The notes under the pieces were generated by a model. The model did not search any database and was not told where the DNA came from. It was given only the letters and a program-made list of their open reading frames with translations. Made by a program: the position numbers and the translations under genes. DNA of 32,910 nucleotides from an uncultured Candidatus Poseidoniales archaeon. GTDB lineage: Archaea; Thermoplasmatota; Poseidoniia; Poseidoniales; Poseidoniaceae. How positions within the stretch are numbered: position 1 is the first letter of the stretch; every line of letters starts with the position of its first letter. Shown here one piece after another: positions 6,301-32,910 of this stretch. Location of the stretch: positions 1-32,910 of the forward strand of contig CAXHCG010000002.1 in assembly GCA_964014905.1 (NCBI GenBank), in the 5' to 3' direction.

Positions 6301-7315
6301 ACAGCACCGTCTCGGCACCTTCGTCGGAGATGGCATCGCTGAGCAAAATCGAGGCGTTTTTGCTGTCCTGCCACATGGAATTGGTCGAAGGGAATGTGGG
6401 CACCTGACTTTGGTCTTGAAGCACCACATAGTCCCATGCAGTTCCGCGAAGCGTGGTGTTCCACTGGTTGCCTGTGGTGTTGACGTTGGACCAGTGCTGC
6501 GGGAGTTTCATGCCACCACCGTTGACCGAACTGACACTGGCGTTGATGTTGTCGGCATCGAGTACACCCTCGACCACCGAGGCAAGGTTGTTCGCGCTCG
6601 TGTAGCTGTTGCCCATCATCAAGATGGAAGCAGAGGATGCATTGGTGGCGTTGCTTCCGGTGCCGTTGTCGGATGAATTGCCGGAGTCGCCCGAGTTATT
6701 GCCGGATGAATTGCCGGATGTACCGTTGGTGTGATTGGCCCACCACGAAGCCAGATCGGGTTGAACCTCAACGTCCAACAGGAAGGTGTCGGTCACCGTT
6801 CCAAGATTGTGGCCCGTGAACGAAACATTGGTGCTTGCTCCTGCAGCCATGGCGATCAGCGGCGAGCCACCAACGGAAAGCGAGGGGTGGTAGGCAGGAG
6901 CCACAGAAACAAGAACGGTAAGGATTGAACTGACGCCGTTGTCGGGTTCAGAGACGTTCACGGCGAACGACCCGCTGTCAGCCACGGTGGCCCCTTCTGC
7001 AAGGCGAACGACCAGGGTCGTGTTTTTCCTCCACGTCGGAAAGACGTTGTCCACCGTGCTGTCAATCGGAACGACCGTCCAAGGCGAAGCTAAGTTGGTG
7101 TCATCCACTGAAACGTCGTACGATTCGATGGAGGAAGCGTTGTTTTCAATGGTTAACGTGAGGTTCATGCTTTGCCCCGGTTCCAAAACAGCATGCTGGA
7201 CATCAACGCTGAGCAGAATGGAGGCGTGAGCCGAAACGGGCGTTACCAACGGAGAGAGGCCCATGGCCATCAGCGCCAAGACACAAAACACCGCACGGCC
7301 TGCTCGGCTGGACAT
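3305..7315 (-). CDS. Large type-I surface protein: signal peptide, CARDB/NEW3-like beta-sandwich repeats, embedded SGNH/DUF4886-like esterase domain, C-terminal TM, acidic tail and zinc ribbon
   Basis: The ORF is open from 7432, but the ATG at 7315 gives a canonical signal peptide, MSSRAGRAVFCVLALMAMGLSPLVTPVSAHA. It carries many L-x-V-x-N-x-G-N type beta-sandwich modules. SGNH blocks are MGNSYT, DYVVLQDQS and SDGSHPS. The TM helix is ATLGVMAAGWLLAIVAVQLL, followed by RRSSRHK, an acidic stretch, and CPSC...CPQC. Confidence 0.88.
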   Translation of the reverse strand: MSSRAGRAVFCVLALMAMGLSPLVTPVSAHASILLSVDVQHAVLEPGQSMNLTLTIENNASSIESYDVSVDDTNLASPWTVVPIDSTVDNVFPTWRKNTTLVVRLAEGATVADSGSFAVNVSEPDNGVSSILTVLVSVAPAYHPSLSVGGSPLIAMAAGASTNVSFTGHNLGTVTDTFLLDVEVQPDLASWWANHTNGTSGNSSGNNSGDSGNSSDNGTGSNATNASSASILMMGNSYTSANNLASVVEGVLDADNINASVSSVNGGGMKLPQHWSNVNTTGNQWNTTLRGTAWDYVVLQDQSQVPTFPSTNSMWQDSKNASILLSDAISDEGAETVLFMTWGYRDGDSLNAFNNNFTAMQARLVEGYTRYAENISSAGNAVWIAPVGLAYKSVHDNVVANGDDPTVSGNLFYDLYTSDGSHPSLSGSYLAACVFHSTITGQTCAGSNDSTNLNASVKLALQEAADDTVFNQTTGMSYYPWETSGTAAFGLGSSVPTGWNIQWQQDELANIPAGGSAATTLSITVPADAAPDFYGYRLTIGSTNGNVTSSTIIVVEVEAEPSVATAFLRQDDVFLPGQSTPTGVQVTNTGNTALDIEWALSQQPSSGLSPCIGSLVSAQTNGLQPDGIDEVDIVVEVDEHADSTSQCGFRLTAAHHHGEGVVVLDVLDFAVNIDEAVNFSLVGPTNIVDIVPAVGANYEIRLANHGSDEATFFLDVSESSGLDTVLVSASGVMVAAGEVGTWTVNTKGDAALSGLLQQSFSSTYNGETTSLAVDINLLEVDGVELLPPSEDRVLITPGSSTSMSITLRNTGTSNLSLVPTLSGLPSDIDVAYDVLEIHVNRTTEQTVVLTFSAATGSTPGTSSASLTYQASEFDITYTFDIVIVDREEVSVNTVQSRLLASPSSVSNLILDVTNLGTASDVYVLEWTTESQGDWFEFTLSPTTFQLSSGSTQQVSIGVQERSVGAPENGVVYTLKVVSTTNSDVSDTVNLTVQPVTAGVNFTILAEVDEAKPGESVYGTVVLTNTGNTEDTFSITTVGVDCGLDVSVTVGPGLSTEPYGWSCVVPNDAAAGQRALSFRAVSSVRSNVVVELGELYTVEADWPSDSRVALSFADGRLSLGIDSSTSTVLTVSNLGNAEVSGTLDAFGQDTGLVVMDWKRMSDDVATSDFTLTSGSSVDFLLTITSNTARTATSEVVVRATSTGGGVLTSDESVPLPISLVGPELPPNGLALPLGVSVSQSATLGVMAAGWLLAIVAVQLLRRSSRHKDGHMDDESQEEDDESEEKELPELGYNECRMDDESKVACPSCEARLGVPRGSTPPFRFNCPQCGEKIRVVE

Positions 7316-7422
7316 GAACCGACCAAAGCGACGCTGTTCAAGAGACTTCGGGAGCAATGGCTCCACACGCCTCACGCTTTGCCCATTCGCAAGTTGGTGC
7401 GCCGCGGCTGAAAGACGAAGCG

Positions 7423-7429
7423 AATATTT
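7423..7429. promoter_or_regulatory. Near-symmetric TATA-like box AATATTT, possibly serving aspS (ATG about 31 nt downstream) and the divergent surface-protein gene
   Basis: This is the only AT-rich element between the divergent starts at 7315 (-) and 7457 (+). Its spacing to the aspS ATG fits a leaderless transcript. Confidence 0.35.
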
Positions 7430-7456
7430 CATGTTCTACGCCTCAGCCCCCGAAGC

Positions 7457-8875: not shown

Positions 8876-9562
8876 TCAGAGGAACAAAAGGACGTAGCCG
8901 ATACCGAACACGACCACGTCGCACATGGCGTGGGTGATGTAGGGAATCCAAATGCTGCGGTACTTGACATAGAGCCAACTGAACGCTGCTCCACCGATGA
9001 ACAATCCAAAGGACGCCAAGAGGTTGGCGGAGAGCGAAAACCCAAGAAACCAAAGCGCAAAGAAATGGTGCGACACAAAGATTCCGGCCGAAACAAGAAT
9101 GGTCGGCCAACCTGGCCCAAACACCGCTTCTCCCTTTTCCACCAAGAACCAACGAAACACGTATTCCTCAAGAACAGAATTTCCAACGGTCCAAAAAACA
9201 GCGGCGGCGATGTAGGTGTTGGCGTTGGTCAACCCGAACGGCTCAAGGCTGGCCCGAAACATTTCGCGGTCAACGCGTGATTCCCCCACGAAAACCCAAG
9301 CGAGCACCATGACGGCCGAGAACACTCCGCCGACAAGGAACCCCATGCCAAGGCCACCTTGTTGAACCGGTGACCACGAGAAGGTCTGGCGGTCAACGCG
9401 AAGGTGCCACCACAAAGGCAGTCCGAGCATCCAAGCCTTCGATGCTAACCAAACGGCTTGCCCAAGCAAGCCTTCGCCCGTGCCAAAAGAAGCAAAAATC
9501 GAGGCCGTGGGGGCAAGACCAACGAGCAAGAGCGCAAGCAAGGCGAGCCGACGATCCGACAT
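8876..9562 (-). CDS. CPBP family intramembrane glutamic endopeptidase (CAAX protease/Abi family)
   Basis: Multi-TM protein carrying EEYVFRWFL (EExxxR), FVSHHFF (FxxxH) and ITHAMCDVVVF (the conserved His). I prefer the ATG at 9562, 2 nt after the upstream ORF's stop. The track's start at 9598 is a TTG. Confidence 0.8.
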   Translation of the reverse strand: MSDRRLALLALLLVGLAPTASIFASFGTGEGLLGQAVWLASKAWMLGLPLWWHLRVDRQTFSWSPVQQGGLGMGFLVGGVFSAVMVLAWVFVGESRVDREMFRASLEPFGLTNANTYIAAAVFWTVGNSVLEEYVFRWFLVEKGEAVFGPGWPTILVSAGIFVSHHFFALWFLGFSLSANLLASFGLFIGGAAFSWLYVKYRSIWIPYITHAMCDVVVFGIGYVLLFL

Positions 9563-9564
9563 GC

Positions 9565-9768
9565 TCAGGCTCCCCAATCCGAGCCAAGACCGTCCCAATC
9601 ATCGGCTGGAAGTGGCGGATTGTCCTCCATGACTGCCGGTGATTCTGGCACCGAGTCAACCGTCTCTGGATCGGTGTGCACAGGAGAAACGAGTTCTTCT
9701 GCGGCCTCCACCATCGGGGTTGTCTGCCCGAGCAGAAGCAACGAAAGCACCAACAACCAATGCTTCAC
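9565..9768 (-). CDS. Small secreted acidic Pro/Asp/Glu-rich protein (67 aa), hypothetical
   Basis: GTG start. The signal peptide is MKHWLLVLSLLLLGQTTPMVEA followed by AEE. The mature part is strongly acidic and ends in DDWDGLGSDWGA. Its stop lies 2 nt before the CPBP ATG. No homology is recognisable by eye. Confidence 0.45.
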   Translation of the reverse strand: MKHWLLVLSLLLLGQTTPMVEAAEELVSPVHTDPETVDSVPESPAVMEDNPPLPADDWDGLGSDWGA

Positions 9769-22548: not shown

Positions 22549-23019
22549 TCAAGCGAGAATCAATCGAAGGCTTTCCAAACTTCGCAATTCGGCGAAGTAA
22601 ATCTGTTCGATCGCGTCGTACATTTCCTGGTCGCCAATTTCATCCAAAAGTGTGATGATGCCGGCGTAGACTTCCGACGCTTTCGTCTCGGTTTCCAAGG
22701 AACGCTGCAGCATGTCCTTGAAATCAGTGGAATGGACAATGGGGTGAGGATTTCGCTCTGTAACCGGTACGCCACCCAGCTTGACGATTGAGCGACGGAC
22801 GACATCGGCGTGTGCCAATGATTCCGTGGCCTCTTCGGTGAACATTGGATCGAGTTGGAGCCGATGGATACCTTGGATGTTCGCAGCGTAATGTGCATAC
22901 ATGTTCATGGCTCGGAGTTCCCACCCAAGCGCTTCATTAAGCCGTTCAACCAACATCTCACTGCCCATGTTATCAGCCGTCCGTTGAGGTCCTACAATTT
23001 TAATCTCAGCATTGGTCAA
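22549..23019 (-). CDS. Ferritin-like / Dps-bacterioferritin superfamily protein
   Basis: A four-helix pattern: LVERLNEALGWELRAMNMYAHYAANIQG, FTEEATESLAHADVVRRSIVKLGG (ExxH), and ETETKASEVY..EQIYFAELRS. The track's start is a TTG at 23019, and the ATG at 22968 (MGSEML...) is an equally plausible start. Confidence 0.7.
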   Translation of the reverse strand: MTNAEIKIVGPQRTADNMGSEMLVERLNEALGWELRAMNMYAHYAANIQGIHRLQLDPMFTEEATESLAHADVVRRSIVKLGGVPVTERNPHPIVHSTDFKDMLQRSLETETKASEVYAGIITLLDEIGDQEMYDAIEQIYFAELRSLESLRLILA

Positions 23020-23027
23020 GGAGGAAT

Positions 23028-25628
23028 TTACTCATGACGAATCCACTCGCCTTCGGGTGTCACTTCCCAATATTGGAGTTCCTCGGAGACGTCGACGTAC
23101 CAACCTGTCTGGCCTTGGACAGTGGAGGGTGTTGCCTGCATCACGCCGATTTTGCCGGCTTCAAGTGCGAGATCCTTCATCGATTCAAGGGTCAAGCCAT
23201 GGCGCTCATGAAGGGGCGTGTTGTCCTCAACAGGTGATTCTACGATCTCGTCTTCATCCGCATCATCGTCGTACTCATCGTCATCAAAAGCGTCCTCAAG
23301 CCACTCCTCATCGGAAGCCTCTGCAGCCCTTCGGGTGAGGGTGATGAGAACGGCTAGAAGAAGAACGAGAAGGATGGCTGCCATGGTCATGGCGGTGTTG
23401 GTTGAACCGACCGCTCCACCGAGCAGAACCTCCTCAACATCGAAGAAGTTTTGAGCCAAAAGACCACTCCAACGGACCGTGCAAGAACGATCAGTGCCTC
23501 CATTTTGAATGTCAACCTCCCACGTACCGTTGGTGACGAAGCTGGTTGGTCCTGTTGTGCATGATACACTGGCGTTGGCCTTTGGAATGCTCAACGTGTT
23601 GCCGTATTCATCGGTCGCAAAAGCATTCAACAAAACGATGTCTCCTTCAGCGAGAATGGAGCGGCTTAGACTGGCTTGAATGCGAACAGGGGAACCAGGT
23701 TCAATGGTGAGTGGGATGGTGTGAACGGCACCTTCGTCTTCGAGAATGAGCGAATATGTTCCGACCTGTTTGCCGGTGAATTGCCAATATCCAAGTCCTG
23801 TAGGTGAGGCTGTCAATTCCCCAAACGAAGCGTTCAAGCTTGAGGTCACAGATACCGATTCGGCAACGTTGCCGTGGACGTCAACCACCTGAATAAAGAG
23901 GTCCTGCGGCAGTCCAGCCTTCACCACCAACCCCTCGTCAGCATCCGTGATCAACCCGTAAGCGTTGCCGGCCACGACCGTCAAACGAACGGTTGCAAAG
24001 ACACCGTCCGCATTCACTCGAATCTCATGACCGCCGACAGTCGTCGCCGTCCAGCGCCCGTTGTTGAGGAGCATCTCAAGGGTGATGTCATCACCGTCAA
24101 GGGTCCAATTGAGCGCAATGGAGTTCAGTTCGTTGGAGTAGGCATCGAAAAACATAGGATTCAGGTCCAAGGACCCGTCAGCCGGGACTCGGTCTCCTTC
24201 GCCTTCAAGCGTGATGAAGGCCAACCTTCCTGGCCGAACCTCAAACGATGCATCGGTCGTGAACATCGCCCCAGTGGCGTTGTCGAACCAACTTCCTTCA
24301 ATCCGCCATGATTGAACGCGCTCGGCTTGGAGGAGCGCATACGACGTATCGAGAACGAGTTCTTCCGTATCGCCCATGGTCGGTTCAATGGTCCCGTCAA
24401 CCACCCAACGGTTTCCTTTGATGTCCTCGGCTACAAGTTCGATCACAACCTGATCGCCTGCTGATGGATTCCGAGGTTCAAGTTGGAGCTTGATGTCAAT
24501 GGCCCTGCCATGGAGAACATCCAGATCCAACGAACTGCTCACCGTACCGTCCGTGCCCGTGATGGTCGCTGGACCGGTCGCAGACGGATTCCAGAACACA
24601 CGCTGATTCTCATCCACAGAAAGCCCTCCAGAAGAGGCCGTAAGAGCGTGAATCGAGGGTGAAACCATACCGATGTACCCGTTCACATCTCTTCGCTCAA
24701 ACATCAGTTCATAGGATTCACCGGCCAAAAATTCCGCTGGTGAATCAACCACCATGAGGGTAGAGGCAACAGCATCGCCGGGAATCACATGGAGTGTCGT
24801 GCTCCCCGTAATGTTGCCTGAAGAGACCGTTATCAGCCATCGACCGGTGTTCGTAGCAAGGTATTCACCCTGGGCATTGAACGAACCGTTTTCTGCAAAC
24901 CAAGACAGTGAACCAACCTTCGAGAGCGGCATGTCATAGCCGTTGATGTCAACAAGAGAGGGGCGAATCGTTTGCAGCGTTCCGGCTCTCACAACAAGGG
25001 GTTCATCGAACACAAAGGAGTGAGGAGCCCCTGCGATGACATCGATGGCCGCCCGAGATTCGAGTTGGTTGTAGCGCACCCGAGCTTGGACTTCACCGAG
25101 TTCTTCGGCCGTCCACGATGGTTGACCATGACCAGCGTAATCGCCGTTGATATCCCAAACCATGGATGATGGCCCAACCATGCGGTTTCCTCGTCCGTCA
25201 AGAACATCCGCAGTGAGGGTGGTTGGTTCCAAAACACCGACAGAACGTGTCGTAATCTCAATGGATGTGGGTACCCCTGGATTCACAGAGATGTTGGTAC
25301 TCGCTATCAAACCATTGTGTTCCGCTGTAATTTCAATCAAACCTGCCGACCAGGGGTAAAACAGACCGTCTTCGGAAATCGTCCCGTTGCTGACCGACCA
25401 AGACACGTCCCCGGTCAGCACGTTGTTGACCGGGTCGTAGATAATGGCCTCAAACAACACCACTTCATCGGCTGAGATGGAGGTTGGGGCAGCATCTATT
25501 ACAACACGGTCGGCAGTTCCTGAACGCATTGAAACGCTGGCGTCCCCCAAAAGTGAAGGCACCGTTGTTGACCATGTCCCGAGGAGGACAAGCCCAACAA
25601 GAACGGCGCAAGCCTTCGGGAACGACAC
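23028..25628 (-). CDS. Type-I surface protein with tandem Big_2-like Ig domains, C-terminal TM, acidic tail and a Trp-rich terminal motif
   Basis: 866 aa. GTG start with GAGGT 9 nt upstream, overlapping the stop of the giant gene. The signal peptide is MSFPKACAVLVGLVLLGTWS. Repeated units follow the Big_2 pattern ...DVSWSVSNGTISEDGLFYPWSAGLIEITAEHNG.... The TM helix is AMTMAAILLVLLLAVLITLT, followed by RRAAE, DEEWLEDAFDDDEYDDDADEDE, and a C-terminal GWYVDVSEELQYWEVTPEGEWIRHE. Confidence 0.87.
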   Translation of the reverse strand: MSFPKACAVLVGLVLLGTWSTTVPSLLGDASVSMRSGTADRVVIDAAPTSISADEVVLFEAIIYDPVNNVLTGDVSWSVSNGTISEDGLFYPWSAGLIEITAEHNGLIASTNISVNPGVPTSIEITTRSVGVLEPTTLTADVLDGRGNRMVGPSSMVWDINGDYAGHGQPSWTAEELGEVQARVRYNQLESRAAIDVIAGAPHSFVFDEPLVVRAGTLQTIRPSLVDINGYDMPLSKVGSLSWFAENGSFNAQGEYLATNTGRWLITVSSGNITGSTTLHVIPGDAVASTLMVVDSPAEFLAGESYELMFERRDVNGYIGMVSPSIHALTASSGGLSVDENQRVFWNPSATGPATITGTDGTVSSSLDLDVLHGRAIDIKLQLEPRNPSAGDQVVIELVAEDIKGNRWVVDGTIEPTMGDTEELVLDTSYALLQAERVQSWRIEGSWFDNATGAMFTTDASFEVRPGRLAFITLEGEGDRVPADGSLDLNPMFFDAYSNELNSIALNWTLDGDDITLEMLLNNGRWTATTVGGHEIRVNADGVFATVRLTVVAGNAYGLITDADEGLVVKAGLPQDLFIQVVDVHGNVAESVSVTSSLNASFGELTASPTGLGYWQFTGKQVGTYSLILEDEGAVHTIPLTIEPGSPVRIQASLSRSILAEGDIVLLNAFATDEYGNTLSIPKANASVSCTTGPTSFVTNGTWEVDIQNGGTDRSCTVRWSGLLAQNFFDVEEVLLGGAVGSTNTAMTMAAILLVLLLAVLITLTRRAAEASDEEWLEDAFDDDEYDDDADEDEIVESPVEDNTPLHERHGLTLESMKDLALEAGKIGVMQATPSTVQGQTGWYVDVSEELQYWEVTPEGEWIRHE

Positions 25629-25640
25629 TTCATCACGACC

Positions 25641-28600
25641 TCATTCTGAGTATTCTTGCCATTCCTCTTCGCCGGCAAGACGGAACCACCAGGTTCCTTC
25701 TTCGTCTTCCCACCATTCGGTTCCGTCTTCATCAACGTTGGTTTCAATGGCCTCTTCCTCAGGCTCGTCTTCGGAGTGTTCTTCAGGAGGAGGTCCGCTT
25801 GGTCCAGGGGCAGGACCACTTGGACCAGGGGCAGGACCGGATGGTCCCGGAGCAGGACCGGTGGGACCCGGTGCCGGACCCGTGGGTCCAGACGGACGAT
25901 CATCATCGTCGTCATAGTCGTCATCATCGTCCCAGTCGTCTAAACGGCCACCGCGCATGAACATCACACCCAGACCAAGAAGAACCAACGCCACAACACC
26001 GAGCAGCCCAGCGCCAACGTAGTACAGCGTACCACCGGCTTCGAAGAAGCCGGCGAGCGTGCCTTCAACGGTGATTTCTTTGTTCACCCGTTCGGCTCCA
26101 ACACTGACCGTGATGGTTTGTGGCCCGTCGTCAAGGGTCGTGATGGTCCAGAGGTCCGAGGAAGTCATCGTGGCTGTGGCGCGTCCTGTCGCTTCAACCT
26201 GAATGCTTCCAGGAACGGGAATCTCGTTGTCAAAGGCGTCAAAGGCTCGAATGCTGACATCAAGACTTGTGAGTTGTTCAAGCGATTCGGTGCTGAGATT
26301 TACGTCCAGCCGGGCAACGATGCTCTGTGCCGAGACGGTGATTTCGGTGGTCGAAACTGCTCCTCCAACGGCGTATTGCAAGGTGTGGACACCCGCAACT
26401 TGTGCGTCATAGGTGTACGTTCCTTCAGACGTAGTAATGATGCTTAGCGTCGGTACTACACCGCCGTTCTCGGTCCACTCGACGTCTTGTGCAAACTGAT
26501 TGCCGTCGGCATCGGTTCCCGTGACTTGAATGTCAACGCGGTCGCCTGCTGTGGGCGTCGCCAGCGAAACATCGGCCTCCACCGTTACCGCTTCTCCATG
26601 AAGAACGGTGATGGTGATGCCATCCGAGATGTTGAATCCGGTTCCGCTGATGGAATACGCCTCAATGCGCCATTCACCGACGGCCGATGCTTCCCATCGC
26701 ATGCCGTCAAGCAGCAACTGTGTCGTGATGTCTTGCACATCGCCAGTGTCCACGTTCACTTCCACCCACGTGAGTTCATCAGAAGCAATACGGTTGGTAT
26801 CGGTATCGTAGAGGTCAGAGAGGAAATCAACGGCGAAATCCGAAGTCAATTCAAACACGGCCCCTGTGGACCGATCCGGGTCATTGGCCGTCCCTTGGAT
26901 GCTTACCGTGTGAAGGAATCCATGGTCGACGGTCATGTTGATGCTGACGGCATGCACGGTGGTGCCGGCGTCATAGGTTGCTGTGAGCATGTAGGGCTCA
27001 TCGCTGGCAAAGTACGGCGTGAAGGTCGTTGAATCGCCGTTCAGCACCTCAAGGAAACTCGACGAATCACCCATGCCTGGATGGTCAAGGGTCCAATTAA
27101 CAACAATGGCCCATTGATTTCCTTTGGCGTCAATGGCGAAAACATCCGCCTCTAAGGTCTCGTCGGCCGTGAGGTCAAAGTGTGCCCAAGTCGAGATTAC
27201 ATCGTCAACCTCAAGCCGCAGTGTTTGGATTTCTCCCTTCACGACATCGATGGTGATTTGCGTCAAGGTGGTCTCATACCGAGCCTCAAGAATCTTTGAA
27301 CCGGTCTTCACCGGGTCCCAGATAGCGGGGGCACCCGGCGTTAACTGCCCGTCAGAGGTCTTGGTCCAGTTGTCTGCGGGCAAAACGACCGAGAGACGGT
27401 TGCCTCTCACGTCAACGCGTGTGGTGTTGATGTAGACGCGGTCGTCGGCCGTGATGGACGTTGAGGACGTGTTCAATTCGAGGTAGTCAATCGCACCGTA
27501 GCCGACGGTAATCTGCAATTCAGCCATGGCTCCGGAAACCGACGTCAAGTTCAGCCACCAAACACCGACGTGGTCGGGGAAATACTCCTGGTTCACTTCT
27601 GAATAATTTCCGTTGGTGGTCGTCCATGTCAAGTTGCCCGCACTGGATACGTCGAGGTCGTTGCCGAATTGGTCGTAAAGGTCAATCGTGATGGCACACC
27701 AGACACCGGCCGGAACCGTGCCTTCACAGCCACCCAACACAAAGTAGGCGGGGGAGCCGGGAAGAACGGTGATCGCCACATCAACAAACTCACCCGACGG
27801 TACATCGTGAGCGACGCGTACACTGTGAGCGCCTGCGGCGTAGGGCTGGAAGACTGAGCCAAGCATGCTTCCGTTGGTCGGTGTGAACAGAATGGGTTCA
27901 CTGAGCACCATGTTGCCGTGCTGGTCAACCATGTGCGCAGTTATTTCCAAGGTTTCGTCGGCCGTGATGGTAGCCGTCAGGGGTGAGACGACAAGCTCGG
28001 TCGGTGCGCCCGCTGTGACGGTGATGTTTTGATGACCGCACACCAACCCGAAACAGGACGTGATGGTCACATTGCCTGCGGAGTTTGGCGTAAACAATCC
28101 GTTGCTGCCAATGTTGCCAGAAGAAGAAGACCATGTCATCGGTGGTGCTTGCACCATCGAAAGGTGATCATACGCAACGGAATTGAAATTCACGGCGGTG
28201 TCGGCGTCGGTGGTCTGCGCCCCGGTCGGACTGATGGAAACACTGGTGATGTTTGTGGTGTTGAACAACACCTGAGGACGGTTTATGGTTGAGGTTCCGG
28301 AATAGAACGATGCGTGAGCGTATCCGGTGTTTGGCGTGGCGATGATGGTCCATGCTTGCTGATTGGTGATGGTCATGCCAAGCGTGCTGACGTCGAACCA
28401 AATCCAACCTTCTGTGTCAACGTTGACCACGGTGGTTGAAACCGCAGAAGCGTAATCCACGCCGGCTTGCATACCGGGAGCACCCCAGGTTCCACCTGCA
28501 GTCGTCCCGTTCCACGTTGCCGAGGCCTGGCCCCAATTTGCGTTTGTAATGGGATGGACGCTAAAGGACACCGAAGTAGCTCCTTGAACCGATTCCCATG

Positions 28601-31600
28601 ACTCAACGTAGAGGCCCAAGGAAGCGGAGTGAACGTTTTGGTACATGGGGAACGGGATTTGAGCGGCGTTCAAGGCGACGTTGATTCGGCACTCATCGGT
28701 CCAAAGCGTTCCACAATAGGTGCCCGTGCTGATGGTCGGTTCACCGGCAAAATTGGTGTTTGCATATTCGCTGTACAAGGCTGTGTCCTGAACGTTGGTG
28801 TGGCCAAAGGCCGCTACTTCATTCCCGGTTTGGAATTCGTAGGTGTAGGTGTAGTCGTTGTTGTATTGCTGATTCGGATCGCCGATAGCAAAACTCCATC
28901 GCGACGAGGAGGGCCCCGGGATGGACTGGTTCACGCCTTGGACCCACCATGAGAAGAGCTGCCCCTCGCTCAAGTTTCTGGCAAACCGGAAGGTGGTGTT
29001 GGTGATTTCGGAATCCTCCCATGAACGGAACTTGTACACACCCGTTTCGTTGGCGATGGTCACGATGTATCCGGTTGCTCCGCTCACCGGCGTCCATGAA
29101 AGGGCCGGCTGAGTTGAAGCGATGAGCAAACCGTTGGTCTCCCCGTAAAGGACCTCGCCATCGGCAGGGCTGTTGAGGGACGGCTGACCTGGCGGGACGA
29201 TGCCGTTCACGTTGTCGACGTAATCCAACACGAGGTGCGGCCGATAAGCTGGATTCGAATATTCCGATGAGTAGAAGCTGTGAGATGAACCCGTTGAGCC
29301 CACCATGGCGAGCATGAAGGTCATCGTCGTGTTCCCGTTTGCGATGTTGGATTGGGCGAGGCTTGTCAAATCCCATTCCATCCAACCAAACGGATTGGTC
29401 AATGTCAAGGTGGAGCGCGTGATTTCACTCGTTGAACACAGAGGTGCTGTAGCCCAGACCACGCTTGATTCTGTGAAGCCGCTGCAAGGGTAGGCGGCGA
29501 TCGTGGTGGAGGAGGTGCCGGAAACACCGGGCTGATACAAACGGAGCATCATTTGCGTCGGCGTCATGGCAGAGGGCCATGGAATGTTGGTCAAGTCAAA
29601 CTCCATGAGAACGCGGCTTTGACCGGTTCCCAGAGCGTTAATGCCAAGCACCATTGTGGTTGAACCGCCACGATTGACGGTGGCGTTGGAATCAATTTCA
29701 ACGTCGAGAACGGTGGGTAGCAATCCCGTGGTTTCAAAGATGGAACCGCGAGAAAGGTTCACTGTGTTGTTTCCGTTTCCATCATCGCTGCCTTGGTCGA
29801 CAGGGATCCGAAGTTTATTCACCGACGACCATTCTCCAATCCGGTCGCCCTGATCGGCACGAATCCGCCAATATTGCCACAAATCGCCCTTGTAGAGCTC
29901 AGCATCGTTGTAGGTGTTGTTGAGGAAGTCGAACGTGTCGTTGCCGTAGGCGCCCGACATGATTTCCTCGTGCGTCCAGCAGGTGGTGAGTTCTTCGTTG
30001 AGGAACCACGGATCGATACCGCCGCACGCTGCGATTTGAGTGTGATTTGAGTAGGTGAGATTCCAAGTGAAATCCGTGCTGTTCATTCCGGAAGGCAATG
30101 CTTTGGTCAAGTCCCAAAGGGTCGTGCCATCTGCAGGAAGGAGGCCGGTTGGTTGGCTTGGCGTCCATGCATCGATGGTTCTGTAGGTCAAGTTGAGCCG
30201 GGGGCGGAGGTCAATGGAAGTTGCATCGCTCGAAGCAAAGGAGACACGTCCTGCCACGCCGTTGTTCCGTTCCACCGGGAACAGAACGACATCAAGCTCT
30301 GCCGAATTGCGAGCCAGAGCGTGTTGGACAAGTCCTGTTACGTTGAAGGCAACCGTTCCAGAGCTGTTGACCCACTGAGCGGGGTTGAAGGGTACGTCAA
30401 AGTCGTCACCCGAATATCCACCGCTTGCAGCCCATGTTGAGTTGTTGCCTGCTGGGTAGGCGAACACCGAAGATTCACTCCACGCAGAGGTTGTTTCCCC
30501 AACAGCAATGAGCGTGGATTGGTAGGTATTGTAGGCGCTGAGTTCTAAACTGGCGTCTATAACTTCGTACGTCCCGGGGAGAGGGAGGCCACTGAAATCC
30601 ATGTTCAAGAGACTCATTGAGCGGAGATTTTGATTGCTGGTTGATACTGAACTTCGGCCCACAAAGAGGGCGGAGGATGAACCGCGGTTGGTGTAGATGT
30701 TTCCGGTATCGAGGTAGGTGTCGTACATCACGTTTGGATAACTGAGCGATGGCACGATGGCCCCTTCTTGGATTGAGAGGTTCGCATAGGTACTGTTGAT
30801 TTCTTCACCGAAGTCATTGGGGAGATAAAACACCGTGGACGTGCTTCTGGGTCCCAGCATGCCGTTGTTCATCGGTTGAACCATCCAGCGGATTTCTTGA
30901 GCGAAATCCAATTCCTGCGGGGGGGTAAATGTGCGATTGGTGACGTCGAAGTCGGCGGTTGCCACACGGGAATCATAGGTGTACAATCCTGCCATGTCAT
31001 CGTTGGCGTCAGCCTGCATGAACACGCGCCAGCCGGTGACTGTGGTCGAGCCGCTGTAGGTCCAACTGAAGGTTGGCAAGCGGTCAGCCATGAGGGCGTG
31101 AGAGGTCGTATCCCAGACGATGGCGGCGTTGTTTGGTCCTGCATTCACTCCGCTCACGGTTGGGGTTGCGACGGTTCCATCTTCCCAAACCAGCGTCAAG
31201 TAGGGACGCTCACTGGCGCTTCCTTCGGTGGATGTGAAGGTGATTTCGTCGGTGGTTTGGCTTGAAGCATAGACCATCAACGACACGTGATTGTGCCCCG
31301 CAGCGAGGGCGGCTTGAACGGCCTCGGTAACGTCAAAATCCATCCAGTCATCAGCAACACTGTCGACCAAGTCCACATAGCCACCCACGTCCGTACCGAT
31401 GCCTCGTCCACCAAGCTGATTCCAAGCGTTGGTGCCGTCGTAGGTTGTGCCGTTGGCCGATGTGGTCCAAGGTTGGAGGACGGGTCGAATGGCGACTGGC
31501 TCGTCTTCGATTGATCCGTACTCAGAAAATAAACTGAGTTCGGCGCCGGTAACACGAGCGCCAGCCGGCTGTGGAACTTCGTTTAACGGTATGCGAAGAA

Positions 31601-32910
31601 GCGCCGCTGCTTGGTATCCAGAAGACAATTCACCAACGCTTAGGGACGTTGAATTCTCGTAGGTGTTGTCCGACCCTGAACCGTTCTCGATGACGTAGGT
31701 GTCGACAAAATGCGGCGTATTGAGGTGTGGAAGAGCACCGTGATGACGCAATTCGACCGATGCCTTCGTTGCGTTGAACACCACCGTGTTCAAGTCGGGG
31801 AGTTGGAAGTGATAGGCGGACGACCAGTTGCCGATCTGATTGGTGGCTGAGACCGCACGAACGCGCCAATACCATGTGTTCCCATCGTCCAAATCGGATT
31901 GGAGTGAGAACGAGGCGTTCACAATGTCAAAGCCAGCGTCGTTCCACGAAGTATAGGTCAGGCTGTTCACCGAAGAGAAGTCACTCTGCGTATCGAGTTG
32001 TACAATGTAGCCCGTGAGCGCCATGGTCCCTGAAAAGGTCCATTCGAGTTCAGGTTGGGTGATGGGTGTGAGATCAACACCGGTGCCGATGGACCATGAA
32101 CCGTTCAGCGGCAGGGCCGGCGACGGATCGGACGGCAGGGCGTCCGATCCAGGGACGTAAACAAAGGAAAGTTCAGGGCGATTGGCCATGGAGTCTTCAG
32201 CCGTGCTGAAGTAAGCGGTCCGAGCACCACCCGAGCCAGCCCCGAGCATGCCGACAATGAAGTCAACGCGCCGGTCTTCCCGCATGGCGTTTTGAACGGC
32301 AAGCGTGACGTTCCACTCAACATCGTCACCTTCTGAATAGGAGGTGCCGACGCCGACACTGGCCAAAAGCGAGCCGCGCTCTGTTCCTTTAGCGCCTGCC
32401 GTGCCCCAGGAGTTTGAACCGTCATAGCTTCCCCACGTCGCATCCTCTGCGCTCCAGTCGTTTTGGTTGCTTTCCCAAACGCCGATGGTCGGAGAGCCGA
32501 ACGTGGTCGAGGTGAGCGACATCGACAGATGAGCGGACTCAACGGCGTAGCCGGTAGGGAGGAGGTTCGAGACCAAATTGCATCCAACCAAACCCGTGAT
32601 CTCGCCACCGAAGGGGCTGTAGTCAATCGTCAACTCTGAGTCACCGTCGAAATTGTCATTCGTTGCAGAACTGTCGATGTATGTGTCCATGCATTCAGGG
32701 TACTGGTTATCCTGTGAGCCGTTTCCATGCTTCAGCCTGAATTCGTAGCGGTCACCGCCCAGCCATATGCTCTCGAGAGAGGAGACCAAGAAACTGGAAC
32801 TTTCCCACGCCCCGTAGTGTCCGTCGCTGTCAACGGTGGCCATGCGCCAGAAGTACATGTTCCCAACCTCCAACGTTCGGTCGCCGGTCATGTCAAGGGC
32901 ACCATCGGAA
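25641..32910 (-). CDS. Giant surface protein, 5'-partial (more than 2,420 aa): 5 x [FN3-like + DNRLRE-like] supermodules, about 8 Big_2-like Ig domains, TM, poly-Asp, (GPxGPAP)5 and a Trp-rich terminal motif
   Basis: The frame is open to the window edge: upstream of the track's Met the codons read SDGALD with no stop. FN3-like strands YWRVRAVSATNQIGNWSSAYHFQLP recur five times. Each is followed by a module shaped like DTY..N......LLR..L..P.GA.V..A.L.L......W.E...TW......DVT..VQ....F.S.E...RP.L.L.Y. The TM helix is YYVGAGLLGVVALVLLGLGVMFM. Confidence 0.9.
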   Translation of the reverse strand, partial: SDGALDMTGDRTLEVGNMYFWRMATVDSDGHYGAWESSSFLVSSLESIWLGGDRYEFRLKHGNGSQDNQYPECMDTYIDSSATNDNFDGDSELTIDYSPFGGEITGLVGCNLVSNLLPTGYAVESAHLSMSLTSTTFGSPTIGVWESNQNDWSAEDATWGSYDGSNSWGTAGAKGTERGSLLASVGVGTSYSEGDDVEWNVTLAVQNAMREDRRVDFIVGMLGAGSGGARTAYFSTAEDSMANRPELSFVYVPGSDALPSDPSPALPLNGSWSIGTGVDLTPITQPELEWTFSGTMALTGYIVQLDTQSDFSSVNSLTYTSWNDAGFDIVNASFSLQSDLDDGNTWYWRVRAVSATNQIGNWSSAYHFQLPDLNTVVFNATKASVELRHHGALPHLNTPHFVDTYVIENGSGSDNTYENSTSLSVGELSSGYQAAALLRIPLNEVPQPAGARVTGAELSLFSEYGSIEDEPVAIRPVLQPWTTSANGTTYDGTNAWNQLGGRGIGTDVGGYVDLVDSVADDWMDFDVTEAVQAALAAGHNHVSLMVYASSQTTDEITFTSTEGSASERPYLTLVWEDGTVATPTVSGVNAGPNNAAIVWDTTSHALMADRLPTFSWTYSGSTTVTGWRVFMQADANDDMAGLYTYDSRVATADFDVTNRTFTPPQELDFAQEIRWMVQPMNNGMLGPRSTSTVFYLPNDFGEEINSTYANLSIQEGAIVPSLSYPNVMYDTYLDTGNIYTNRGSSSALFVGRSSVSTSNQNLRSMSLLNMDFSGLPLPGTYEVIDASLELSAYNTYQSTLIAVGETTSAWSESSVFAYPAGNNSTWAASGGYSGDDFDVPFNPAQWVNSSGTVAFNVTGLVQHALARNSAELDVVLFPVERNNGVAGRVSFASSDATSIDLRPRLNLTYRTIDAWTPSQPTGLLPADGTTLWDLTKALPSGMNSTDFTWNLTYSNHTQIAACGGIDPWFLNEELTTCWTHEEIMSGAYGNDTFDFLNNTYNDAELYKGDLWQYWRIRADQGDRIGEWSSVNKLRIPVDQGSDDGNGNNTVNLSRGSIFETTGLLPTVLDVEIDSNATVNRGGSTTMVLGINALGTGQSRVLMEFDLTNIPWPSAMTPTQMMLRLYQPGVSGTSSTTIAAYPCSGFTESSVVWATAPLCSTSEITRSTLTLTNPFGWMEWDLTSLAQSNIANGNTTMTFMLAMVGSTGSSHSFYSSEYSNPAYRPHLVLDYVDNVNGIVPPGQPSLNSPADGEVLYGETNGLLIASTQPALSWTPVSGATGYIVTIANETGVYKFRSWEDSEITNTTFRFARNLSEGQLFSWWVQGVNQSIPGPSSSRWSFAIGDPNQQYNNDYTYTYEFQTGNEVAAFGHTNVQDTALYSEYANTNFAGEPTISTGTYCGTLWTDECRINVALNAAQIPFPMYQNVHSASLGLYVESWESVQGATSVSFSVHPITNANWGQASATWNGTTAGGTWGAPGMQAGVDYASAVSTTVVNVDTEGWIWFDVSTLGMTITNQQAWTIIATPNTGYAHASFYSGTSTINRPQVLFNTTNITSVSISPTGAQTTDADTAVNFNSVAYDHLSMVQAPPMTWSSSSGNIGSNGLFTPNSAGNVTITSCFGLVCGHQNITVTAGAPTELVVSPLTATITADETLEITAHMVDQHGNMVLSEPILFTPTNGSMLGSVFQPYAAGAHSVRVAHDVPSGEFVDVAITVLPGSPAYFVLGGCEGTVPAGVWCAITIDLYDQFGNDLDVSSAGNLTWTTTNGNYSEVNQEYFPDHVGVWWLNLTSVSGAMAELQITVGYGAIDYLELNTSSTSITADDRVYINTTRVDVRGNRLSVVLPADNWTKTSDGQLTPGAPAIWDPVKTGSKILEARYETTLTQITIDVVKGEIQTLRLEVDDVISTWAHFDLTADETLEADVFAIDAKGNQWAIVVNWTLDHPGMGDSSSFLEVLNGDSTTFTPYFASDEPYMLTATYDAGTTVHAVSINMTVDHGFLHTVSIQGTANDPDRSTGAVFELTSDFAVDFLSDLYDTDTNRIASDELTWVEVNVDTGDVQDITTQLLLDGMRWEASAVGEWRIEAYSISGTGFNISDGITITVLHGEAVTVEADVSLATPTAGDRVDIQVTGTDADGNQFAQDVEWTENGGVVPTLSIITTSEGTYTYDAQVAGVHTLQYAVGGAVSTTEITVSAQSIVARLDVNLSTESLEQLTSLDVSIRAFDAFDNEIPVPGSIQVEATGRATATMTSSDLWTITTLDDGPQTITVSVGAERVNKEITVEGTLAGFFEAGGTLYYVGAGLLGVVALVLLGLGVMFMRGGRLDDWDDDDDYDDDDDRPSGPTGPAPGPTGPAPGPSGPAPGPSGPAPGPSGPPPEEHSEDEPEEEAIETNVDEDGTEWWEDEEGTWWFRLAGEEEWQEYSE
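25785..25895 (-). repeat. In-frame 21-nt tandem repeat, five copies, encoding GPTGPAP-GPTGPAP-GPSGPAP-GPSGPAP-GPSGPPP in the cytoplasmic tail of the giant protein
   Basis: Plus-strand units are aggaggaggtccgcttggtcc / aggggcaggaccacttggacc / aggggcaggaccggatggtcc / cggagcaggaccggtgggacc / cggtgccggacccgtgggtcc. The copies differ mainly at synonymous positions. Confidence 0.9.

What the first reader, a model, noticed from the sequence alone, without database searches (positions are those of the whole stretch)
22549..32910. Operon of surface giants and a common TM + acidic tract + mini-domain anchor design
**Operon structure.** The >2,420-aa gene, the 866-aa gene and the ferritin-like gene lie head-to-tail on the minus strand with 12-nt and 8-nt spacers. 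GAGGT overlaps the giant gene's stop, 9 nt before the 866-aa GTG start.

**Shared anchor.** Together with the 3305..7315 protein, all three surface proteins with visible C-termini have the same layout. It consists of a Sec signal (where visible), a huge glycan-binding or Ig-like ectodomain, one TM helix, 2-4 basic residues, a poly-Asp/Glu tract of about 13-25 residues, and a ~30-residue folded-looking cytoplasmic module (Trp-rich motif x2, Zn ribbon x1).

**Interpretation.** This recurring design looks like a dedicated anchoring or inside-out coupling system for envelope proteins. It is distinct from archaeosortase/PGF-CTERM anchoring. The adjacent ferritin-like gene could be an unrelated passenger or could supply or sequester metal for the envelope proteins.
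Basis: inference. Interest (0 to 1): 0.72.

Follow-up and report, generated by a model that had tools for sequence, protein, structure and literature searches.

The report
Conserved cytoplasmic tails on archaeal surface giants
In the abundant marine archaea Poseidoniales, a giant sugar-binding surface protein and a smaller partner are encoded side by side, and each ends in its own strongly conserved small domain inside the cell; these domains probably dock the cell coat to something in the cytoplasm, and the neighbouring ferritin gene is a bystander.

Summary
The giant gene (25641..>32910) and the 866-aa gene (23028..25628) lie 12 nt apart with a GAGGT Shine-Dalgarno-like site. All three large surface proteins in the window share one layout: signal peptide, ectodomain, one TM helix, basic residues, an acidic tract and a small C-terminal module.

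**Corrections**
- The ferritin gene most likely starts at ATG 22965, giving a 60-nt spacer rather than 8 nt. It is absent from this position in about 94 other Poseidoniales loci, so it is a passenger.
- The two "Trp-rich" tails are different modules. Tail A is a helix plus a GT.QG..GWY β-meander. Tail B is a DGTEWWEDEDGTWWYR four-strand meander. hhalign gives 1-2% probability that they are related.

**New findings**
- The pair [giant + tail B] followed by [Ig-like partner + tail A] is conserved across the order (61 of 66 loci).
- All three tail types evolve more slowly than their ectodomains.
- Tail A is an uncatalogued domain. It also occurs as tandem repeats in soluble, eukaryote-like IQ/PH/PDZ/EF-hand proteins.
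- Neither surface protein of the pair nor the 1375-aa protein carries a PGF-CTERM signal.

The function, cytoplasmic docking or coupling, is inferred and not shown.

The parts
25641..32910 (-). Giant surface protein gene, 3' 7.27 kb. The N-terminal ~630 aa lie beyond the window end. It contains CBM96 x3, a disaggregatase-like repeat, and a membrane-proximal Ig-like stalk.
   Evidence: ORF and translation; Pfam CBM96 5.5e-44; full-length orthologues of 3,045-3,059 aa with an N-terminal signal.
25956..26027 (-). The giant's single TM helix (residues 2295-2318), followed by RGGR at 25944-25955.
   Evidence: Hydropathy scan; coordinates.
25899..25943 (-). The giant's juxtamembrane acidic-aromatic tract, LDDWDDDDDYDDDDD.
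   Evidence: An equivalent tract is present in 54 of 56 tail-B proteins.
25785..25895 (-). Collagen-like Pro/Gly repeat (PSGPAPG)n in the giant's cytoplasmic linker.
   Evidence: Present in orthologues with a variable copy number; one orthologue is named 'collagen-like protein' by NCBI.
25644..25739 (-). Tail B module, NVDEDGTEWWEDEEGTWWFRLAGEEEWQEYSE, at the giant's extreme C-terminus.
   Evidence: Conserved in all giant orthologues whose C-terminus is intact. AF2 gives pLDDT 87.5 and a four-strand β-meander. No Pfam hit.
25629..25642 (-). Giant-866 junction: GAGGT (25642-25638) overlaps the TGA stop within a 12-nt spacer before the GTG start.
   Evidence: GAGGAG and GGAGGTG occupy the same position in L002 and L003.
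23028..25628 (-). 866-aa Ig-like partner protein. It is a paralogue of the giant's stalk.
   Evidence: 103 orthologues in Poseidoniales. 25% identity over 679 aa to the giant's stalk, E 1e-30.
23334..23399 (-). The partner's TM helix (residues 744-765), followed by RR.
   Evidence: 81% column identity among orthologues.
23223..23315 (-). The partner's acidic-aromatic tract, SDEEWLEDAFDDDEYDDDADEDE... W776 is invariant.
23031..23198 (-). Tail A domain: a helix (GLTLESMKDLALEAGK) followed by the β-meander IGVMQATPSTVQGQTGWYVDVSEELQYWEVTPEGEWIRHE.
   Evidence: 83% column identity. AF2 gives pLDDT 89. 230 clusters in the exhaustive search. About 115 true Poseidoniales loci.
22549..22967 (-). Ferritin-like gene (139 aa from ATG 22965). 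It is a passenger, probably with its own promoter (ATTAAAAT about 30-37 nt upstream).
   Evidence: PF00210 5.8e-18. Start codon and synteny evidence.
3305..7315 (-). Third surface protein (1,336 aa from M40): signal peptide, DUF4886 plus Ig-like domains, TM 3539-3598, RRSSRHK, acidic tract 3461-3517, and a C4 zinc ribbon 3308-3460.
   Evidence: The zinc ribbon is 78-94% identical in five orthologues whose ectodomains are 37-86% identical.

Best explanation
The region encodes a core Poseidoniales (Marine Group II) envelope module. A giant glycan-binding type I membrane glycoprotein of about 3,050 aa is co-expressed with a smaller Ig-like paralogue of its own stalk.

**Topology.** Both proteins are exported by a signal peptide and held by one C-terminal TM helix. 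Each projects an acidic, disordered tether of roughly 60-100 residues into the cytoplasm, ending in a small folded β-meander. The giant carries tail B and the partner carries tail A.

**Proposed function.** The tails are protein-protein docking modules. They tie the two surface proteins to each other, to a shared cytoplasmic or cortical partner, or both. This would organise or mechanically couple the glycoprotein coat in a lineage whose cultured relatives, the Thermoplasmatales, lack an S-layer. The 1375-aa protein follows the same plan with a zinc ribbon as its terminal module. The ferritin gene is an unrelated neighbour.

**Shown:** the architecture, topology logic, conservation, gene pairing and domain distribution.
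**Inferred:** docking, complex formation, and the identity of any partner.
For: - **Architecture and topology.** One TM helix, basic residues on its C-terminal side, and sequons only in the ectodomains.
- **Order-wide gene pairing.** A giant lies directly upstream of the tail-A gene in 61 of 66 loci with room for it. By eye, nearly all of those giants end in tail B or a clear variant of it (a strict regex matched 48 of 64; one carried tail A). RFC|giant|partner synteny holds in L001-L004 down to 26% identity.
- **Purifying selection on the tails.** Each tail type is more conserved than its ectodomain.
- **Variable tether.** Linker length ranges from 54 to 285 residues while the terminal module is fixed 21-26 residues from the stop. 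This is the pattern expected of a tethered binding domain.
- **Confident folds.** AF2 gives pLDDT 89 for tail A and 87.5 for tail B.
- **Intracellular use elsewhere.** Tail A is homologous to a repeat unit in soluble proteins that carry IQ, PH, PDZ and EF-hand domains. The library search gave E 7e-26 and hhalign gave 99.5% probability, E 1.4e-22. This fits an intracellular interaction module.
- **Tail A appears to be needed once per system.** The two giants that carry tail A themselves (P0196, a 32%-identical orthologue, and P0229) have no partner gene downstream.
- **Origin of the partner.** The partner's ectodomain is a paralogue of the giant's stalk.
Against:
- Tails A and B are both strongly acidic, so simple electrostatic pairing between them is unlikely.
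- The fold searches gave no significant match, so the fold gives no functional hint.
- The rule that a giant with tail A has no partner rests on two loci of unknown taxonomy.
- Co-transcription is inferred from spacing and a Shine-Dalgarno-like site only.
- Poseidoniales are uncultured and their envelope has not been imaged, so the reference to a wall-less coat is extrapolated from relatives.
Confidence: 0.5

Rival explanations
1. The C-terminal region is a cleavable sorting or anchoring signal, analogous to PGF-CTERM/archaeosortase, LPXTG/sortase or GlyGly-CTERM/rhombosortase. A dedicated membrane protease would recognise it and remove the tail from the mature protein.
For: - The position at the extreme C-terminus and the helix-plus-basic-residues outline resemble tripartite sorting signals.
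- An Rce1-like/CPBP intramembrane protease gene lies in the window at 8876..9598.
- A rhomboid gene lies near the giant in L131.
Against: - There is no PGF, LPXTG or GG signature before the helix, and no NCBIfam sorting-signal hit at E<=1.
- The tails extend 77-104 residues in the window (up to 285 plus the ~45-aa domain in other loci) beyond the helix and contain a confidently folded domain. Known signals, from established knowledge, end within about 10 residues of the helix.
- The module is the most conserved part of the protein, and it has soluble intracellular homologues in eukaryote-like proteins.
Confidence: 0.1
2. The tails are self-association modules. Single β-meander, propeller-blade-like units from several chains would assemble into a ring or lattice under the membrane and cluster the surface proteins, with no separate cytoplasmic partner.
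For: - Tail B superposes on single blades of the designed Pizza2 and the PknD NHL propellers (TMq 0.67, rmsd 1.4 Å over 32 columns, Foldseek probability 0.98), although the E-value is only 0.6.
- Tail A occurs as tandem arrays of 2-6 units in eukaryote-like proteins.
- Tail A and tail B genes are strictly paired.
Against: - The Foldseek E-values are not significant, and small β-meanders match many folds.
- In the eukaryote-like proteins the repeats are 70-250 residues apart, with helices between them. That spacing is not propeller-like.
- Both tails carry a large net negative charge, which would oppose close packing without counter-ions.
Confidence: 0.15
3. The acidic tether and Trp-rich tail act mainly as a physical element. 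They could serve as a polyanionic brush or cation (Ca2+/Mg2+) buffer, or as an interfacial membrane anchor that resists extraction of a single helix holding a roughly 300-kDa ectodomain. No specific protein partner would be involved.
For: - The tails are 28-34% Asp/Glu and 3-12% Lys/Arg.
- Acidic-aromatic clusters next to the membrane are present in 54 of 56 tail-B proteins and 86 of 114 tail-A proteins.
- The modules are rich in Trp, which favours membrane interfaces (established knowledge).
- An EF-hand-bearing permease is a conserved neighbour.
Against: - A purely physical role does not explain near-invariant positions across about 40 columns.
- It does not explain the strict A/B division between the two genes.
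- It does not explain interchange with a C4 zinc ribbon.
- It does not explain homology to modules in soluble proteins.
- The acidic tract itself is poorly conserved in sequence, at 51% column identity.
Confidence: 0.15
4. The three genes form one functional operon in which the ferritin-like protein supplies or sequesters metal for the envelope proteins.
For: Same strand, close spacing, and no obvious T-run terminator between the genes. Ferritin is also adjacent in L001 and L002.
Against: - Ferritin is absent from this position in L003 and L004, and in 0 of about 94 other loci with room downstream.
- Its conserved start is ATG 22965, 60 nt after the 866-aa stop, with an AT-rich box 30-37 nt upstream.
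Confidence: 0.05

Closest known systems
PGF-CTERM / archaeosortase A-anchored archaeal surface glycoproteins (e.g. the Haloferax S-layer glycoprotein)
   Same: Archaeal, signal-peptide-bearing, heavily glycosylatable surface proteins whose attachment is determined by the C-terminal end, including a hydrophobic helix followed by basic residues.
   Different: There is no PGF motif and no TIGR04126 match. Here the helix is followed by a 77-104-residue cytoplasmic extension (in the window) with a conserved folded domain, and not by a few basic residues. Nothing suggests cleavage or lipid attachment.
Two-protein archaeal S-layers encoded as an operon (Sulfolobales SlaA/SlaB), and the disordered glycoprotein coat of S-layer-less Thermoplasmatales (PMC12448462)
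   Same: A large outer protein plus a smaller partner encoded in tandem. They are the dominant candidate coat proteins, and the partner is anchored by a C-terminal helix.
   Different: Both proteins are membrane-anchored here. The partner is a paralogue of the giant's own stalk. Both carry conserved cytoplasmic domains, which are not described for SlaB to my knowledge. No sequence relationship to SlaA or SlaB was tested.
Eukaryotic adhesion receptors with adaptor-binding tails (integrins, cadherins, dystroglycan)
   Same: The working principle is a large glycosylated ectodomain, a single-pass helix, and a short conserved cytoplasmic tail that recruits intracellular proteins. The heteromeric pairing of two chains resembles integrin α/β.
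   Different: There is no homology. The resemblance is functional analogy only, and no intracellular partner is known.
Small cytoplasmic modules on bacterial single-pass membrane proteins (DUF2510 PF10708, zinc_ribbon_2, GYF_2)
   Same: Modules of about 30-45 residues, either Trp/Tyr-rich β-hairpins or zinc ribbons, that appear interchangeable at the cytoplasmic end of single-pass proteins. The GWY.D...W spacing of tail A resembles DUF2510 (from memory).
   Different: The Pfam scan found DUF2510 in 0 of 15 archaeal tail-A sequences. The only hit was sub-threshold (23.4 versus 24 bits, 13 residues) in one eukaryote-like protein. The bacterial modules are usually N-terminal.
GW / SH3b-like cell-wall-binding modules (AtlE amidase R2ab, PDB 4EPC) and SH3 domains (SHANK3)
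   Same: A short shared motif, GT(V/I)(N/Q)G(K/Q)(S/T)GW(Y/F), leading into a β-strand.
   Different: Only 9-13 residues match, with E 0.02-0.5, which is not significant. GW modules are extracellular and about 80 aa long. Foldseek did not recover SH3 folds.

Membership tests
PGF-CTERM archaeosortase sorting signal (TIGR04126) | Pro-Gly-Phe motif immediately before the C-terminal hydrophobic helix. | tested here: not met
   The residues before the helices are GGAVGSTNTAM, FFEAGGTLYYVGAG and SVSQSATLGVM. None contains PGF.
PGF-CTERM archaeosortase sorting signal (TIGR04126) | The helix is followed only by a short basic cluster at the very C-terminus. | tested here: not met
   104, 101 and 77 residues follow the helix, including a folded module.
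PGF-CTERM archaeosortase sorting signal (TIGR04126) | Match to the curated HMM. | tested here: not met
   The NCBIfam scan at E<=1 gave no sorting-signal model for any of the three proteins.
PGF-CTERM archaeosortase sorting signal (TIGR04126) | An archaeosortase ArtA gene in the same genome. | not tested
   Only 33 kb of the genome is available. None of the genes in the window is ArtA-like by Pfam.
DUF2510 (PF10708) | HMM match at or above the gathering score. | tested here: not met
   No hit for the window tails at E<=10. 0 of 15 diverse tail-A sequences matched. One eukaryote-like protein scored 23.4 bits against a 24-bit cut-off over 13 residues.
WW domain (PF00397) | A three-stranded sheet with two signature Trp 20-22 residues apart and a Pro after the second Trp, plus an HMM match. 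| tested here: not met
   No Pfam hit. Tail A has W-x10-W-x7-W and a preceding helix. Tail B has four strands. No WW structure appeared among the Foldseek hits.
Zinc ribbon (C4; Pfam Zn_ribbon clan, best PF23548) | Two CxxC knuckles separated by a β-hairpin, plus an HMM match. | tested here: met
   The sequence is CPSC-x18-CPQC. It scores 29.9 bits against a 27-bit cut-off when the tail is scanned alone, and 24.3 bits within the full protein. All four Cys are invariant in five orthologues.
Ferritin-like (PF00210) | HMM match above the gathering score. | tested here: met
   65.6 bits against a 24.5-bit cut-off. No NCBIfam equivalog (bfr, Dps) reached its cut-off, so the subfamily is unassigned.
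CBM96 carbohydrate-binding module (PF24517) | HMM match above the gathering score. | tested here: met
   150.3 bits in three stretches in the visible part of the giant. Also seen in orthologues.
β-propeller blade (structural class) | A four-stranded antiparallel meander that packs with other blades into a closed ring. | tested here: inconclusive
   The tail B model matches single Pizza2 and PknD blades at TMq 0.67 and rmsd 1.4 Å, but with E 0.6. Ring formation could not be tested.

The most novel reading that the evidence does not exclude
Tails A and B form the cytoplasmic end of a heteromeric transmembrane linkage, integrin-like in principle. The linkage would couple the Poseidoniales glycoprotein coat to an as yet unidentified cortical or cytoskeletal partner. 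Tail A would be a previously unrecognised intracellular adaptor domain shared, by ancient descent or by transfer, between these archaea and marine eukaryotes, where it is arrayed next to IQ motifs and PH, PDZ and EF-hand domains.
Probability: 0.2. Interest if true: 0.85.

Novelty: new variant of a known kind. Interest (0 to 1): 0.62.

Why it matters
Poseidoniales are the most abundant archaea in the surface ocean. They are uncultured, and their cell envelope is undescribed.

- **A candidate core of the cell coat.** The order-wide gene pair for a roughly 3,000-aa glycan-binding protein and its stalk paralogue is a strong candidate for the core of the coat or the particle- and algal-glycan adhesion apparatus.
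- **A handle on envelope-cytoplasm coupling.** The conserved cytoplasmic domains give a concrete, clonable handle of about 35-50 aa for asking how an archaeon without a characterised wall connects its surface to its interior.
- **A domain family for curation.** Tail A is uncatalogued in Pfam, NCBIfam and the PDB and spans archaea and eukaryote-like proteins.
- **A practical marker.** The motifs (A..GT.QG..GWY and DGTEWWEDEDGTWWYR) are near-diagnostic markers for Poseidoniales contigs.

Tried and rejected
- **Pfam and NCBIfam on the tails**. Nothing was found for tail A or tail B.
- **Foldseek of tail A against PDB and BFVD, and of tail B against PDB**. No hit reached E<=0.001. The propeller-blade resemblance of tail B is kept only as a lead.
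- **PDB sequence profiles**. These gave only 9-13-residue GW/SH3-like matches, which are not significant.
- **Homology between tails A and B** (hhalign). Rejected at 1-1.6% probability.
- **Word-indexed homologue search with the 47-aa tail-A profile**. It returned only short fragments and was uninformative. The exhaustive search was needed.
- **The search for related loci with the tail alignment**. It was replaced by a degenerate DNA pattern.
- **Stand-alone soluble archaeal tail-A proteins.** The 50-130-aa hits looked like candidates, but the two examined (L018, L066) are frameshift fragments split within the acidic tract.
- **Ferritin as an operon member.** Rejected on synteny and start-codon evidence.
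- **Bacterial promoter/terminator scan.** Not run, because the organism is an archaeon. Only manual inspection for T-runs and AT-rich boxes was done.
- **Literature searches**. None returned a description of these tails or of the gene pair.
- **Rfam and tRNA scans of the window**. Empty.

Full report
**1. What is in the window**

The minus strand carries three consecutive ORFs.
- An ORF running off the window end (25641..32910), with 2,422 codons visible.
- An 866-codon ORF (23028..25628, GTG start).
- A ferritin-like ORF ending at 22549.

The giant's TGA stop (25643-25641) is followed by 12 nt and then the GTG.

Pfam assigns the following.
- The giant has three CBM96 modules and a disaggregatase-type repeat.
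- The 866-aa protein gets only weak Ig-like or CarboxypepD_reg-type signals.
- The small ORF is PF00210 ferritin.
- The protein at 3305..7432 has DUF4886, several Ig-like domains and a C-terminal zinc ribbon.

A hydropathy scan finds exactly one helix near each C-terminus (coordinates). Each helix is followed by basic residues (RGGR, RR, RRSSRHK), then an Asp/Glu-rich tract, then a terminal module. N-glycosylation sequons are frequent in the ectodomains (46, 9 and 28) and absent from the tails. That agrees with an outside-N, inside-C topology. The anatomical part of the finding is therefore correct.

**2. Corrections to the observation**

*Ferritin start.* The 8-nt spacer assumes a TTG start at 23019.
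- In the orthologous locus L002 the corresponding upstream codons are unrelated in sequence. Conservation begins exactly at the ATG that corresponds to window 22965 (MG[ST].E[ML]..ERLNEALGWELRA).
- Independent gene calls on two contigs also use that ATG, giving 139 aa.
- The spacer is therefore about 60 nt. It contains an AT-rich box (ATTAAAAT) 30-37 nt before the ATG and a conserved GGACCTCA element.

*The two Trp-rich tails.* They are not the same module.
- Tail A, on the 866-aa protein, is a helix followed by GVMQA.P(G/S)T.QG..GWY.D......W.V...G.W.
- Tail B, on the giant, is (R/N)VD(E/D)DGTEW(W/A)ED..G.WW(Y/F)R..G...W.E(Y/W).
- Profile-profile comparison gives 1-1.6% probability of homology.

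*Giant length.* The full-length giant is about 3,050 aa with an N-terminal signal sequence. The window and an independent ENA contig break at the same point inside the gene.

**3. Are the tails conserved?

They are, in all three cases.

*Tail A.*
- 103 homologues of the 866-aa protein were recovered, all unnamed or labelled Poseidonia, Poseidoniales or Euryarchaeota. They range down to 45% identity, plus one positional homologue at 26%.
- Column identity is 83% in the tail-A module, 81% in the helix, 67% in the ectodomain and 51% in the acidic tract.

*Tail B.*
- It is present in all giant orthologues whose C-terminus is intact.
- Against the most distant orthologue (L004), the ectodomain is 34% identical and tail B is 59% identical.

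*Zinc ribbon.*
- The tail PLGYNECRMDDGKV.CPSC.ARLGVPRGS..PFRF.CP.C...IRVVE is 78-80% identical in orthologues whose adjacent ectodomain is 37-39% identical.

AlphaFold2 models, each built from the tail's own family alignment, are confident.
- Tail A has pLDDT 89 and forms a helix plus a three-to-four-stranded antiparallel sheet.
- Tail B has pLDDT 87.5 and forms a four-stranded meander.

**4. Distribution**

An exhaustive HMMER search of 1.84 billion representative proteins with a tail profile found 230 clusters at E<=1e-3. They fall into two classes.

*Class 1: archaeal type I membrane proteins.* These have a signal peptide, a large ectodomain, a helix and the module at the very end.
- The partner family (about 860-1,300 aa).
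- Two giants of about 3,040 aa.
- A 2,738-aa subtilase with PA14, LamG and GH115_C domains.
- Where sources give names, they are "marine group II/III euryarchaeote" or "Thermoplasmatota archaeon".

*Class 2: soluble proteins without a helix.* These carry 2-6 copies of the module together with IQ motifs and PH, PDZ, EF-hand or Tudor domains.
- They are eukaryote-like.
- One sits on a Tara Oceans marine metagenome contig whose neighbouring genes include one with a faint SAM-domain hit.
- The repeat profile matches archaeal tail A with hhalign probability 99.5% and E 1.4e-22.

- About 115 hits are genuine.
- Nearly all are Poseidoniaceae or Thalassarchaeaceae MAGs.
- The module always ends 21-26 residues from the stop, and a helix lies 54-285 residues upstream.
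- Five further hits are chance matches, four of them on bacterial contigs.
- Two "bacterial" MAG contigs (Yoonia, Salipiger) carry the full archaeal gene pair and are presumably mis-binned.
- Two of the short apparent stand-alone tail ORFs were examined, and both are frameshift fragments.

**5. Gene pairing and the status of ferritin**

In L001-L004 the order is RFC small subunit (divergent), then the giant, then the partner. Ferritin follows only in the window's own clade.

Across the 120 loci:
- A giant-like ORF lies directly upstream on the same strand in 61 of 66 cases with room for it.
- By eye, nearly all of these giants end in tail B or an obvious variant of it. A strict regular expression matched 48 of 64, and one carried tail A.
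- A ferritin homologue follows in 0 of about 94 cases with room downstream.

The conserved unit is therefore [giant + tail B] followed by [partner + tail A], and ferritin is a passenger.

A Shine-Dalgarno-like site precedes the partner's start in three of the four lineages examined: GAGGT, GAGGAG and GGAGGTG. This is compatible with co-transcription, but there are no transcript data.

Two further observations bear on how the pair arose.
- The partner's ectodomain is 25% identical over 679 residues (E 1e-30) to the giant's membrane-proximal Ig-like stalk, so the partner is a stalk paralogue.
- The two giants that carry tail A themselves (P0196, a 32%-identical orthologue over 2,351 residues, and P0229) have no partner gene downstream, although the RFC|giant arrangement is retained.

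A simple reading is that tail A is needed once per system. After duplication of the stalk, helix and tail-A segment, the giant's own tail was replaced by tail B. This rests on two loci and remains an inference.

**6. What it is not**

- It is not a PGF-CTERM signal. There is no PGF motif, no NCBIfam sorting-signal hit, and the post-helix extensions are long and folded.
- It is not a DUF2510, WW, SH3 or GW member by any HMM or fold test run here. The 9-13-residue GT.(N/Q)G.(S/T)GW resemblance to GW/SH3 modules and the single-blade resemblance of tail B are kept as leads only.
- The five literature searches returned no description of these tails or of the gene pair.
- Cultured Thermoplasmatales, in the same phylum, are reported to lack an S-layer and to be bounded by a disordered glycoprotein layer (PMC12448462). 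That is the background for proposing that such membrane-anchored giants form the coat.

**7. Most likely mechanism**

*Shown.*
- Two co-located, order-wide conserved type I surface proteins.
- Each carries a tethered, slowly evolving, confidently folded cytoplasmic end module.
- The tether is variable, acidic and in part collagen-like (Pro/Gly repeats).
- Aromatic residues are embedded in the juxtamembrane acidic cluster in 54 of 56 tail-B proteins and 86 of 114 tail-A proteins.
- Tail A has soluble intracellular homologues combined with classical interaction domains.

*Inferred.*
- The end modules are protein-docking domains.
- They connect the giant and its partner to each other, to a common cytoplasmic factor, or both, organising or mechanically coupling the coat.

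I put this at about 0.5. The rivals are listed with their tests: a cleaved sorting signal (0.1), self-assembly into a sub-membrane ring or lattice (0.15), a mainly physical polyanion or interfacial anchor (0.15), and a ferritin-linked operon function (0.05).

**8. Verdict**

Transcription start sites could not be tested. The ferritin link and the equation of the two Trp-rich motifs do not hold.

The case is a new variant of a known kind, namely C-terminally anchored archaeal surface glycoproteins. It has an uncatalogued cytoplasmic domain family and an unexpected link to eukaryote-like proteins. Interest is 0.62.

Noticed in passing
P0131, P0134, P0142, P0157, P0161, P0164, P0167, P0170 (representative library); L130:340-1230: The tail-A domain occurs as 2-6 tandem units in soluble, eukaryote-like proteins with IQ motifs and PH, PDZ and EF-hand domains, often directly after an IQ-like basic helix. 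No Pfam or PDB family covers it. The source organisms are unknown; the contigs come from marine metagenomes.
   Followed up: partly
L131:1159-10281 and L132:6001-15132: Two orthologous giants carry tail A in place of tail B and have no partner gene downstream. One lies on a 3.0-Mb contig, which is larger than I would expect for a Poseidoniales genome (my own knowledge, not checked here). Their taxonomy could not be determined.
   Followed up: partly
window 23223-23315 and 25899-25943: The juxtamembrane acidic tracts contain embedded aromatic residues (EEWLEDAFDDDEY; DDWDDDDDYDDDDD). The Trp is invariant in the 866-aa family. The pattern recalls eukaryotic W-acidic short linear motifs (from memory). 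It may be a second docking site.
   Followed up: partly
window 25785-25895: A collagen-like (PSGPAPG)n repeat lies in the giant's cytoplasmic tether. Copy number varies between orthologues, and NCBI names one orthologue 'collagen-like protein'. It may form a polyproline-II spacer or a ligand for a proline-binding module.
   Followed up: no
window 22968-23027: Upstream of the ferritin ATG there is an AT-rich box (ATTAAAAT) followed by GGACCTCA. The latter is also present in L002. This may be an independent archaeal promoter or a metal-regulator site.
   Followed up: partly
window 20879-22537 (+): An amino-acid permease fused to a C-terminal EF-hand pair lies convergent to the ferritin gene. It is a conserved neighbour of the giant-partner module in L001-L004. 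A Ca2+-binding domain on an archaeal transporter is unusual.
   Followed up: no
L018:1387-4036 and L066:983-3632: In some MAG assemblies the tail-A ORF is split from the rest of the partner gene by a frameshift, apparently within the repetitive acidic tract. This produces spurious 50-130-aa 'hypothetical proteins' in public databases.
   Followed up: yes
L038 (Yoonia sp. MAG) and L040 (Salipiger bermudensis MAG): Contigs binned as alphaproteobacterial MAGs carry the complete archaeal giant-plus-partner pair with tails B and A. This is most likely mis-binning of Poseidoniales contigs.
   Followed up: partly
window 32910 (end) and L001 position 1: The window and an independent 45.5-kb ENA contig both terminate at the same position inside the giant gene. 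This suggests a repeat or a strain-variable segment that breaks assemblies about 630 codons into the gene.
   Followed up: no
L004:13266-15362 and L085: In some lineages a third type I protein of about 700 aa follows the partner. It ends in a degenerate tail A (GLLKAIPGTEAGQDGWYFDPYNRPQHWVFTEDGWTRNA), so the module can expand to three genes.
   Followed up: no
window 8876-9598 (-): An Rce1-like/CPBP intramembrane protease gene lies 13 kb from the module. It is relevant only as a candidate if the tails were to be processed.
   Followed up: no
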